A stretch of DNA of 50,686 nt, the filler included, from Sphacelaria rigidula (lineage: Eukaryota), in the NCBI GenBank assembly GCA_964200075.2. It is 3 parts of 3 records of this genome, joined end to end, with 100 filler letters (N's around TTAATTAATTAA, not from the genome) between each part and the next. Parts side by side here need not be neighbours in the genome. Positions count along the whole stretch, not along the records: positions 33,862 to 50,686 come from CAXNAA020001245.1; 2 more parts are not named here. One strand, 5' to 3'. Every line of letters starts with the position of its first letter. The first letter of the stretch is position 1. The notes below the pieces were generated by a model. It worked only from the letters and a program-made list of their open reading frames with translations, searched no databases and was not told the origin of the DNA. Of this stretch, positions 36,959 through 46,500 are shown in pieces. Both the position numbers and the translations under genes were made by a program.

Positions 36959-37566
36959 CAGTCCACATGCACGGTAATCCAGGCCGCGTCTTTGACATTT
37001 TCGACTTCAATACCTCAATATACACTGGGCGACTCACGAAGAGCCTGGAATTTGACTCATCGGGCGATTCGAAGGTGTATACCAAAGTCCAAACACTTTT
37101 TCGAACAAGATCCCAAAACAAACTTCAAAATCTTTCCGAGAAATGCTCGAAATAAATTATAGAAACGACTCCGTCCTAAAAACATTCTACAAAGATGTGA
37201 CTCCGACTTTCGTTTTTCGTATGAGCATCTCCATGATATTTTTTTTATTTCAAGATGACTATAGCAGCAGCATTGTAGTTACCGCCGTGTGGGAGATATG
37301 ACACGACCCTCATGACCGACTTTACTCATGAGACAGAGGAAGCGTCTGTTTCTCATTCTTCTTTCTGCATTCTTCCTTTTCCTCAAAACCCTCGGCGGGT
37401 GCTTTCGTGCCAGTGCTCTTTTTAGAAGGTCCATGCTGTGTCCTCGGCTGGATACGTGATGAATTAGTCACAGTAGTGTGAAACAAGCAATCGATCAGTC
37501 GATCAATGATGCTCTCCCCTCCTTCTCATTTATCGATGCCATACAACAGTCCTGAGGCCACGCGAA

Positions 37567-38355
37567 CAGGCCTTTGCTTCGTAGGCTTTCAGCCCCAAAA
37601 GCCCGTCGTTACTACTATGAGCCCCAAAAATACATTTTTTTCTGTCGTTTTTTTTTGTCGAAAAATGCCCATTTCCTTCCCCCGGAAGATGTTACTCTCT
37701 TCTCTTTTCAGAGGAACTTATATATTTTTCGGAGCCTGTATCTGCGGGGCCCGCTGAAGGAAGCACGTCGGGCTGCCTACCTGCCTACCCACCTGTCAGA
37801 CGACCACACCCCACACACCACTATTCAGGAGCAGGGATCGGTTACCCGCCGGTAGGTGGGTGACAAAGACAAAAAACAAATCGGCCGAGAAAACTCAAGA
37901 AACCATAGGAAAAAAAAATAAAACTCGAGAAAAAAAAATGAGAAGCCGGCGAAAAAATATGACGCCCAGAGAATGAAAAAAAGCAGCCGGAAAAACTAAG
38001 TGGAGAAGCCGAAAACAACCTCGAGGTGCCGAAAAACATCATGAGAAGCCGGAAACAACATCGGGAAGCCGGACAAGAAATTGAGAAGCCGAAAAGAAAA
38101 TTAAGAATCAGGATTCGAATTCAGAAGCCGGGGGAAAAAATGGACAAGCCGAGAAAAAAAATGGAGGAGCCGAACACAACATTGAGGAGCCGGAAACAAA
38201 ATTCAGAAGCCGAAAATAAAATGGTGGGAGCACAAAACAAAATTCAGAAGCCTGACACAAAAACAAAAGCCGCCCCCCCCAAAAAAAGACCAAAATCTGA
38301 TCATTAGGGGCCCACAAACAAGACAAAAAAAAGGGGCCTAAGGAGCAAACGCCTA
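37567..38355. mobile_element. Non-autonomous hAT-type DNA transposon (789 bp)
   Basis: Imperfect ~20-bp TIRs (caggcctttgcttcgtaggc versus reverse complement of the right end taggcgtttgctccttaggc), flanked by a perfect 8-bp TSD CACGCGAA (37559-37566 and 38356-38363). YAGG termini with an 8-bp TSD are characteristic of hAT. Confidence 0.88.
37940..38272 (+). repeat. Degenerate ~20-bp tandem array (core AGAAGCCG + A-rich spacer) inside the hAT element
   Basis: About 16-17 units such as agaagccggaaacaacatcg, agaagccgaaaagaaaatta and aggagccggaaacaaaattc. Confidence 0.85.
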
Positions 38356-43500: not shown

Positions 43501-46500
43501 AGTCGAATCCATCACCCATCGTTCTCTGCGCATACGTATCGTATCCAGTGTTCCACGGAAAGTAGACAATACGACGAGCTGGACAAGCTACACGCTCGCC
43601 GTCGTGAAGTAGCCGTAAGTATAGTCACAGCGCATGGGACAACGTCTTTACAGCAGCACTACACTGCAACGAAGATCACATAGCCCGCGGCTCAGCCTGC
43701 ACGTAATGATAAAGAGTACCATCATTGAACGAGTCTTCTTGTGCGATCTTGAGCACAGGAAACACCCGCCAAACAAACAGAAACGCGAAGATTGCGACTT
43801 CTGGCCCCGCATTGTGCAAACTTTACCTTCATCTCCTGGCACATGACCGGGGCTAGAACCAGTACGGCACCGGTGACCTCAGCAGGGAGATCGTCGCAGT
43901 TCCTTAGCACTACGTCGTACCTCGCCAAAACGTCCCTCTCCTGCTGGACCGCGTCGATCGCCAGAGAAAATGCCCCACATACCAACACGCAGAGTGCCGT
44001 AAACAGCCGCATGCTAGTGTTGATTAGACGCCAAGTCCGATTGGAAAGGGTGTTGGCGGTACGGTGGTTGTCTGTTGATGGGTAGACGAAGCTGTACTAC
44101 CGTACTACAGGCATGAGATGGTGCGCAATAGCTCAAGTGGTGGTACAAGCGTCTGCCTCGCACGTCGTTCGTTGCAGGGTGGTGGTGAGTTTCTGTTGAT
44201 GGAAGGCAGAGGAAGAAAGTAGTCACAAGTTGATGATGGAATGGACAGTGAGTGCATGTGCGGTTGTGTGCGTAGCCTGGAAAATGATTTTTTGCTTTAG
44301 TCGACAGGTGGTGATGATCAAGATATGGTGTGTGGTACGGTGGCTGTCGAAAAACAAAATACGAAATGTATGTTGCTTTGACAGTGAAACACAACGTGAC
44401 TAGTCACCAACGTTTTCTCACCCCGACCAAATGGCTGCGGACCCCCACTGATGACCCACTCACACGTCTCGACAGCAATGCTGTAGAGAGCAAGCGACAC
44501 CATCAAACTCCTCGAGGGGTCGGAGATGTGCGGGATATCTTGAGGTCACATGAGGGAATCATAAGACAACGACCAATCATGTTTGGAACGAAATTTTCGT
44601 GTTCGATACTCAAGTCTGACAGTCTTGGATGGGCTACTGTTGTATACCGTGGTGCAGCACCATACAGCACATCAAGATTGGCCAAGCATAGCAACAAGGG
44701 TTAAGAGTGGCAGAATGCACCACAAGAAGCAGACATCAAGCCATGACATGGTTGCCTTCAGCTGCATACAGTACCAACTTGCCCCGGGACGCAAGGTGCA
44801 AGAGAATAAGGAAGAAAAGACGTTTCCATTTTTTTTTTGCCCTCTATTATAGTGGACGAGGAAGTCTCACCCAACGTTCAACGTTCTCCCCGTGAGCGGG
44901 TTCGTGTGCCGATTACTCGGAGGCTCGGCTAGACCACCTCACGACAGTCATGCGGGGTAGGCTCCTCGAGCGTTCGGAAAGCTTTGTTCAAGGCAGTGTG
45001 AGGCGTATCCATTTGCCTTTGCGGCGTCGATGAAGGTGAGAGTGGCAACGGTCCCACGTGGAGTACGATACAGTACTCGTAGTAGTGCCGCAATGTACGA
45101 ACCGTGAAGTGTGTCGTGTGTTTCTCTTGAGCCCACTATCATCGACACTGTTTTTTCAGACATGTCAGAAATTCGCAGAGTTTTCGGACTCTGCGTTCAG
45201 ACTACACCGAGAATGAAGCGGCTTGATATTTCCCCGAAAGCTTCATTTTGGGAAAGTTCGAAACATGCGCACTGCGACGCAGCACTACGGAAAGCTGCCC
45301 TGGATATACGCCGTGGCGCTCGCAAGCGTTCGACAACCAGGAGGTACCTTGGCCGTCCCTACCATTCCGGAGATCTCCGGGAAAACAATGTCGACAACAG
45401 TGACAACCATCTCACGTACAGTATAATAGTAGTGCCGCAATGTACCGCACAGTACGGTGCATGTATGTCTTACTGCTGTAAAGAGCGTCATTAAACAGAC
45501 TCCGGCACGCTGCATCGAACCCGGTTCCCGCATACCATACTGTGCGTGCATGCTGAGCACTATCGTCGATTATTGTCTATGTTCACTGGGGTCTCACCAC
45601 TGCGTCGAAAGTTCGAAACGCCTTGTTGATGCAGTAGCTGACGGTGTATAACACCCCTGCCCTCTCCCAACAAGGTGGCTGGCCCGCCGGCATGGACTAC
45701 ATTGCTGTACAAAAATTGCAGCAGGTAGGCCTCAACGCATGGTATCGGCATTGCCCTGTAGCCATTCGCATCACGTCATCCGAACACACACACCAGAGCT
45801 TCCTCGACGTGCTGTAAACACAGCCGCGTGATGACAATTATGTGCTCACCAGGGCTTCATGCAGTTAGCCCGCTCGTTACACACTGCACGTTGATGGTTA
45901 TGGGCAGTTGAATAACCCCGACCATGTCCCACCAATCCGGACCATTTTCTGTTGCCCTGCGAACAACATCTAGAAGTGTTACGTACATGAGCAGAACAGC
46001 AGCAGCGTCATGCGGGGAACGTTTTTTTTGTTACGTACGAAGTAGTATTTCGATTTTGCACGAACACCTCGGGGGAAAACAGTGGATGATGGCAAAAGCT
46101 GTATCCCGCATTCGTGAGGATGCTCCGCATGTGCTGTGCATGTACAGTAGCAGCGGCCCAGACAGCACCGGCCCCCGGCTCAGGAAGCATCCGCGTGGAT
46201 GATCAAGGTGCGTGGAAATAAAGACAGGCAGTTTCTCTCGTAGATCGCAATGGCGAAAGCGCTGTATGCAACGAGCTATGACAGGAGCCGTACACCCTAG
46301 GGTGAACAACAGCCTCCTCTGGGAAAGCTGACCTCCGGCGTTATGGGAGAGCACCGCGCTCGCGTAACACCACTGGCAGGGGCACGGGAAGATGCCATCA
46401 GCTAGACAATGCGATATTTGCATTGCAAAATGATTTACTGAGATCCATCAATGCTGCAAATGAAACGAGTGGACTGGAGTTCAAAACGTTTGGACTTTGC

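What the first reader, a model, noticed from the sequence alone, without database searches (positions are those of the whole stretch)
37526..44012. Secreted-type protein with a beta-rich N-terminus, a duplicated linker and a C-terminal AAC4-like/PD-(D/E)xK nuclease-fold domain: possible effector or polymorphic-toxin architecture
Seen: six phase-0 exons splice into one 636-codon frame that the ORF track shows only in pieces. Its parts are a hydrophobic leader (MRLFTALCVLVCGAFSLA), a beta-strand-patterned region (NCDDLPAEVTGAVLVLAPVMCQEMKNVTVTGTVAF...LIFHNVRFAVASNASALF), an S/P/D/R-rich duplicated linker and a globular C-terminal region. Recalled knowledge, not searched: KEAAILQHC...GSSIATDLASELGKIDIGVQVVSIL...KKFAKVMKRRVQKM...FCFMAVMV resembles the AAC4-like family pattern (E..L..C...SITDY..EL....IGVSVTR...LL.KKL...ILH.W), which has a PD-(D/E)xK-type layout. 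The N-terminal region resembles the start of brown-algal adhesin-like beta-helix proteins. Inference: signal + adhesin-like module + linker + nuclease-fold tip is the layout of polymorphic toxins and effectors, and I do not recognise it as a described family here. GVQVVS in place of GVSVTR could mean the domain is inactive.
Basis: partly seen in the sequence, partly recalled or inferred. Interest (0 to 1): 0.75.

Follow-up and report, generated by a model that had tools for sequence, protein, structure and literature searches.

The report
Orphan secreted algal protein, corrected model
An intact, spliced algal gene encodes a probably secreted protein of a small family with no recognisable relatives; its last exon differs from the one first proposed, and the suggested nuclease-toxin identity found no support.

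Summary
RNA-like contigs from three runs confirm introns 1-4 exactly. The protein is 666 aa and intact, so no TAG read-through is needed. A hAT-like MITE (37567-38355, 8-bp target duplication) supplies the stop codon and cuts off 10 former codons. The leader, beta-rich N-module and duplicated linker are confirmed. Where both ends of a paralog are visible, the C-terminal domain is the same, so no polymorphic tips were seen (4 of 7 exon-1 copies are untestable). It matches the algal family no better than shuffles. Only six exon-4 fragments of the same family were found among 1.84 billion proteins. The fold of the whole C-domain could not be predicted. Best reading: a lineage-restricted secreted matrix or surface protein with a flexible spacer and a conserved, strongly basic C-domain. 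A divergent nuclease is not excluded (about 15%).

The parts
43827..44012 (-). Exon 1 (aa 1-62): signal-like leader (about aa 1-18, 43959-44012) and start of the N-module, with Cys39 and Cys58
   Evidence: homologous exon on 7 contigs
42740..42886 (-). Exon 2 (aa 63-111), beta-patterned N-module
41725..41811 (-). Exon 3 (aa 112-140), N-module
40757..40861 (-). Start of exon 4 (aa 141-175), conserved end of the N-module
40046..40756 (-). Linker in exon 4 (aa 176-412), S/T/P/D/R-rich. About 100-aa unit duplicated, plus a 23-aa tandem repeat carrying the conserved SRWAR motif; much shorter in paralogs
39674..40045 (-). First half of the C-domain (aa 413-536): conserved E485, C492-P-x-C495, W497-D498, G515-K516-x-D518
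39128..39325 (-). Exon 5 (aa 537-602): very basic helix (18 K/R in 30 aa), acidic stretch, then a conserved strand
38548..39127 (-).
38353..38547 (-). True exon 6 (aa 603-666 and stop); same acceptor position on 4 contigs
37567..38355 (.). hAT-like non-autonomous element (789 bp, imperfect terminal inverted repeats, about 20-bp internal repeats). Its first three bases are the gene's stop codon; 8-bp target duplication at 38356-38363 and 37559-37566
   Evidence: covered by RNA-like contigs
37526..37558 (-). Ten open codons and a TGA beyond the element: probable former end of the reading frame
   Evidence: inference

Best explanation
An intact, transcribed member of a small lineage-restricted family of secreted two-domain proteins in an intron-rich alga (brown-algal type, inferred).

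Shown: the spliced 666-aa frame, the conserved leader, the N-module, the length-variable linker and one shared C-domain.

Inferred mechanism: the leader routes the protein into the ER and out to the cell surface or wall. The beta-rich N-module, with two conserved cysteines, anchors it or binds a ligand. The disordered spacer gives reach and tolerates duplication. The alpha/beta C-domain grips polyanionic matrix (alginate or sulfated fucan type) through its basic helix and second basic loop. A conserved CPxC and Glu/Asp/Lys cluster serves as a disulfide, metal-binding or catalytic site. It works as a fixed two-module matrix or surface protein, not as a cassette-swapping toxin.
For: - Splice joints in 3 of 3 RNA-like runs.
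- Leader hydrophobic in 6 of 6 exon-1 copies examined, with no second transmembrane-level segment (maximum 19-aa hydropathy 1.29) and 3 N-glycosylation sequons.
- Same C-domain in correct order on 4 contigs and as scrambled pieces on 3 more, out of 9 contigs with an exon-4 start; the other 2 contigs end within about 320 nt.
- Database fragments P0003-P0005 join the exon-4 start or linker to the same C-domain.
- Purifying selection between the two close copies: exon 4 pN 0.030 vs pS 0.086; C-domain part 0.004 vs 0.023, on few changes.
- 18 K/R in aa 537-566.
- Many genes gained at the origin of brown algae encode secreted or membrane proteins (passage in 10.1101/2024.02.19.579948).
Against: - No ligand, location or activity was tested, and SignalP/HECTAR could not be run.
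- Three paralogs have Phe directly after a possible cleavage site, as in plastid bipartite signals (PMC2567999 passages).
- A basic helix fits nucleic-acid binding as well as polysaccharide binding.
- Residue conservation rests on 7-10 related sequences, some broken copies.
- RNA status of the runs is the tool's guess, all three are one study, and no single listed contig spans all six exons.
- Exon 5 shows 4 non-synonymous and 0 synonymous changes between the copies.
- The lineage is inferred, not tested.
Confidence: 0.42

Rival explanations
1. One reading: the C-domain is a very divergent PD-(D/E)xK nuclease (AAC4-like) with two basic insertions, carried on a secreted scaffold as a defence effector or an extracellular nuclease.
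For: - Alternating helix/strand periodicity across the true exons 4-6.
- Invariant E485, D498, K516 and D518 could bind metal.
- The window's protein beat 497 of 500 local shuffles on the family HMM, but the family was picked for resembling this copy.
Against: - Both top registers score -5.1 bits, and 671 of 1000 shuffles do as well.
- hhalign local: 23 of 40 shuffles do as well; global: 19 of 30. Cheap-gap alignment z 0.8-1.3.
- Paralogs: 32 and 251 of 500 shuffles do as well.
- The stretch around D509 has helical periodicity (0.41 vs 0.21) where the family has a strand (0.20 vs 0.43).
- No such protein among the hits of the exhaustive profile search.
Confidence: 0.15
2. A pro-protein: the secretory pathway cleaves at the conserved R-x-x-R-like motif that ends the linker and releases a cationic C-terminal domain acting as an antimicrobial or anti-fouling factor.
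For: The SRWAR motif is the only conserved part of the linker, lies just before the C-domain in paralogs and database fragments, and is tripled in this copy. The released part is strongly basic.
Against: The conserved Trp and following residues look like a binding motif rather than a bare cut site. The Arg pair varies in P0003, P0004 and P0006. The convertase rule is recalled, not tested.
Confidence: 0.15
3. Not secreted: the leader is a bipartite plastid or periplastid signal and the basic C-domain binds organellar nucleic acid.
For: Phe follows a small-residue site in 3 of 6 paralog leaders and possibly in the window's; HECTAR passages describe this motif.
Against: The residues after that Phe are acidic in most copies, unlike transit peptides (recalled). 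The paired cysteines and sequons fit a secreted protein.
Confidence: 0.1
4. The C-domain is a degenerate bulb-type (beta-prism II) lectin whose three blades are split by a long insertion.
For: Three beta-hairpin-like stretches resemble lectin blades by eye. The genome has a genuine bulb lectin exon. Blade-profile hhalign was beaten by only 4 of 40 shuffles.
Against: Blade and domain HMMs give no score on the window's protein. Profile z is -0.1 to 0.4. The proposed second blade has helical periodicity.
Confidence: 0.05

Closest known systems
Motif-defined myxobacterial restriction-endonuclease-fold family
   Same: Short look-alike motifs in this one copy; similar E-C-D spacing; mixed alpha/beta pattern.
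   Different: No significant sequence or profile similarity. Its TD and GVSVTRA residues are not kept in the algal family. About 180-aa compact bacterial domain versus about 250 aa with basic insertions.
Polymorphic toxins and effectors (CdiA/Rhs-type logic; definition recalled)
   Same: Signal, N-module, spacer and globular tip.
   Different: One shared tip wherever both ends are visible; no orphan tip cassettes of other folds or immunity gene seen; no demonstrated toxic fold.
PF02415 (Chlam_PMP) beta-helix surface proteins of this genome
   Same: Secreted-type leaders and beta-rich N-terminal parts in the same genome.
   Different: No profile match of the N-module to 20 such contigs. They are long single-exon repeat proteins; this N-module is about 155 aa over four exons with no PMP repeats.
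Lineage-specific secreted or membrane proteins gained at the origin of brown algae (10.1101/2024.02.19.579948, passages read)
   Same: Intron-rich gene, leader, no relatives outside a narrow lineage.
   Different: Whether this family is among that paper's orthogroups could not be checked (preprint supplements are closed); the lineage here is inferred.

Membership tests
AAC4-like / myxobacterial REase-fold family | Significant profile match to the family | tested here: not met
   HMM 1.9 bits on the window protein, 0.7 and none on paralogs; hhalign probability 0.15%; all profile scores within shuffles
AAC4-like / myxobacterial REase-fold family | Invariant TD and GVSVTRA residues (117 of 117, but these were the retrieval pattern, so their invariance is circular) | tested here: not met
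   Asp in 3 of 8 algal rows; no TR; Q/E in place of S
AAC4-like / myxobacterial REase-fold family | Helical Glu followed about 10 residues later by Cys | tested here: inconclusive
   E485 kept in 10 of 11 rows and C495 in 9 of 11; post hoc register not above shuffles
PD-(D/E)xK nuclease superfamily | alpha-beta-beta-beta-alpha-beta core fold | tested here: inconclusive
   Only the exon-4 half could be folded, pLDDT 40; the model is too poor to judge
PD-(D/E)xK nuclease superfamily | Metal-dependent nuclease activity | not testable with these tools
   needs an assay
Polymorphic toxin system | Shared N-terminus with unrelated C-termini among paralogs | tested here: inconclusive
   Same tip in all 3 resolvable of 7 exon-1 copies; 4 unresolved (2 contigs end early, 2 show no further exon). 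No different tip seen.
Polymorphic toxin system | Adjacent immunity gene or orphan tip cassettes | not tested
   No dedicated search; downstream DNA holds a MITE and no long frame
Secreted protein | Cleavable N-terminal signal peptide | tested here: inconclusive
   Hydrophobic core in 6 of 6 leaders and basic N-end in 5 of 6; SignalP/HECTAR not available
PMP/adhesin-like beta-helix | PF02415 repeats or similarity to their N-caps | tested here: not met
No Pfam hit; no match to 20 PF02415 contigs.
Bulb-type lectin PF01453 | Three QxDxNxVxY-type blades (motif recalled) | tested here: not met
   PF01453 search of the genome found one other locus only; custom profiles at shuffle level
hAT-type MITE (3' element) | 8-bp target-site duplication and short terminal inverted repeats, no transposase | tested here: met
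   superfamily rule recalled; autonomous partner not sought

The most novel reading that the evidence does not exclude
A eukaryotic, intron-rich, secreted family whose C-domain is a heavily remodelled PD-(D/E)xK nuclease (active site E485/D498 or D518/K516) with an inserted basic coiled coil. It is released by cleavage at the conserved linker motif and used by a seaweed as an extracellular or delivered anti-microbial nuclease.
Probability: 0.1. Interest if true: 0.75.

Novelty: new member of a known kind. Interest (0 to 1): 0.3.

Why it matters
On present evidence it is one of many lineage-specific secreted algal proteins. It is an undescribed family with two domains that no library here recognises, so it is a modest structural-genomics target and a candidate wall or surface component. 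The corrected, RNA-backed gene model makes the decisive fold prediction a one-step job. If the domain proved to be a nuclease, it would be a rare secreted nuclease effector in a seaweed. The transposon-donated stop codon is a neat but minor case of a MITE reshaping a protein end.

Tried and rejected
Library and database searches:
- Pfam on the single exons, the database fragments and the exon-1 alignment: nothing above cut-off.
- Word-index search with exon 4 residues 250-396 at near lengths: 0 of 393 candidates.
- PDB sequence searches with four exon profiles: nothing significant.
- ESM Atlas: unnamed clusters at 0.92 with low shared-feature counts for the exon-4 part, nothing for exon 6.
- Metagenome contigs: 0 of 128 candidates confirmed. 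Viral contigs: 1 of 23, a 16-aa CPxC match, rejected as chance. P0007, a bacterial repeat protein, rejected as a repeat artefact.
- No run is on record as RNA; X1-X3 are treated as RNA because of their splice joints.

Structure:
- A three-chain complex job with the exon 4, 5 and 6 pieces returned no verdict.

Own genome:
- No canonical member of the myxobacterial family found with one query (best E 9.9).
- A recalled adhesin motif found 0 matches.

Ideas rejected:
- The bulb-lectin idea (mine) was tested and dropped.
- TAG read-through and pseudogene readings were rejected by RNA.

Literature:
- Searches for AAC4 + nuclease and AAC-rich mRNA / AAC4 protein gave nothing on the family; the one paper opened (10.64898/2026.07.06.735840, passage) used aac4 for a resistance marker.
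- Brown algae + polymorphic toxin + nuclease gave 0 papers. Searches were seen as listings only, apart from the two papers cited.
- Earlier scan notes: none.

Full report
1. Observation. Eight runs hold the region. Four hold 28-38% of its words, about the exonic share, and are guessed to be RNA. I laid three of these four and one of the four others. All three show five CT..AC joints that the fourth lacks. The fifth skips 580 nt, so the last exon begins at 38547, not 38742.

That acceptor sits at the same place on four contigs. The protein is 62+49+29+396+66+64 = 666 aa with no internal stop. The TAG and the FCFMAVMV stretch are intronic. Caveats: the runs are one study, and no listed contig spans all exons. 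Their letters are a mosaic of the window and its close second copy: 7 of the 9 listed differences I could map match copy 2 and 2 are private.

2. The 3' element. A 789-bp element with imperfect terminal inverted repeats and an 8-bp target duplication begins exactly at the stop codon. Ten open codons and a TGA follow its far end. It is in both close copies and full length only there, out of 7 matches, and it is covered by the RNA-like contigs. Its effect is the loss of about 10 residues, not inactivation.

3. Family. Exon 1 has homologues on 7 contigs, exon 2 on 7, the exon-4 start on 9, the exon-4 C-part on 7, exon 5 on 6 and exon 6 on 4. C17031 plus C4908 repeat most of the 16-kb contig at 86-92% identity; this is an allele or a recent duplicate. 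C10441 has exons 1-5 in order with identical phases, and C21006 has exons 3-6. Several other copies are scrambled by short inversions.

The linker is about 237 aa here, with a duplicated unit, and much shorter in C10441 and C21006. Wherever the order can be read, the tip is the same domain: 3 of 7 exon-1 copies. Two contigs end too early, and two show no further exon in 3-6 kb, so polymorphism is unseen, not excluded. Between the close copies, exon 4 has pN 0.030 against pS 0.086, and its C-domain part 0.004 against 0.023; exon 5 has 4 non-synonymous and no synonymous changes. An HMMER scan of 1.84 billion representatives with the C-part profile returned 7 proteins: six unnamed gene calls on the same exon 4 and one repeat artefact. 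The family is narrow.

The link to the alga is not supported. The HMM scores 1.9 bits on the window protein. Only 3 of 500 shuffles do as well, but the family was chosen for resembling this copy. For the paralogs, 32 and 251 of 500 shuffles do as well. Profile-profile tests give 23 of 40 (local), 19 of 30 (global), z 0.8-1.3 with cheap gaps and 671 of 1000 (ungapped core).

In favour of the rival: the algal family keeps E485 (10 of 11 rows), CPxC, W497-D498 (8 of 8 with a residue) and G-K-x-D (7 of 7). E485, C495 and D518 also have the spacing of the bacterial invariants E44, C54 and D77, a post hoc match. The fold itself remains open, because only the exon-4 half could be modelled (pLDDT 40).

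5. N-terminus. All six leaders examined have a hydrophobic core, and there is no later transmembrane-level segment. The module keeps C39, D-L-P and alternating hydrophobic strands. It matched none of 20 PF02415 beta-helix contigs of this genome. A Phe after the likely cleavage site in three paralogs leaves plastid targeting open (PMC2567999, passages read).

6. Mechanism. Shown: gene structure, splicing, family, constraint and charge layout. Inferred: secretion, an anchoring N-module, a flexible spacer, and a basic C-domain that binds anionic matrix and carries a conserved redox, metal or catalytic site (0.42). Rivals are a divergent nuclease (0.15), a processed cationic defence protein (0.15), an organellar nucleic-acid binder (0.10) and a split bulb lectin (0.05, my own idea, tested without support); the remainder is something else. 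The brown-algal assignment is inferred from intron sizes and gene content, partly by recall. A passage of 10.1101/2024.02.19.579948 says many genes gained at the origin of brown algae encode secreted or membrane proteins.

7. Verdict. A real, intact, undescribed lineage-restricted family. The gene model is corrected, the nuclease link and polymorphic architecture are unsupported, and the fold is unresolved. Literature searches showed no description of it. Interest 0.3.

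Noticed in passing
L054-L173 (genome contigs pattern hits); model m880f550bb716: A widespread myxobacterial protein family with no Pfam match (3 of 3 tested) folds confidently as a restriction-endonuclease-like domain nearest HamA, XisH-type and CdiA-CT. 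Some members are fused to PF02129, PF01364, PLD-type or FN3 domains.
   Followed up: partly
window 37567-38355: A hAT-like MITE supplies the gene's stop codon and 3' UTR; it has about 20-bp internal repeats and is shared by both close copies.
   Followed up: yes
window 34367-50686 vs G000:C17031 and C4908 (L011, L043); also C2862 (L051, L014): A second copy of nearly the whole contig at 86-92% identity, and a partial third of its upstream part. RNA letters are a mosaic of the first two, suggesting very divergent alleles or gene conversion.
   Followed up: partly
L014, L015, L016, L044, L049, L012, L207: Many family copies are scrambled by short local inversions and duplications of exons; either real decay or assembly/amplification chimeras.
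   Followed up: no
L190:1480-2085 (G000:C4974), minus strand: A genuine bulb-type mannose-binding lectin exon (PDB agglutinins E 1e-12), unrelated to this family.
   Followed up: partly
L241-L260: A large family of mostly single-exon 400-1030 aa PF02415 beta-helix proteins, several with Cys/Asp-rich repeats before the helix.
   Followed up: no
window 12963-13439, minus strand: An exon resembling ATP synthase subunit d by recall; a PDB search with 53 aa found nothing.
   Followed up: partly
window 27073-28035 and 29284-30096, plus strand: Long open frames of another multi-exon gene (fibronectin-III-like and other pieces, by recall).
   Followed up: no
window 36419-36449 and 36660-36690: 31-nt inverted repeat, 84% complementary, 210 nt apart.
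   Followed up: no
window 16836-16935, 33762-33861, 48717-49196: N gaps: the window is several contigs joined; the gene lies wholly inside one (C1245).
   Followed up: yes
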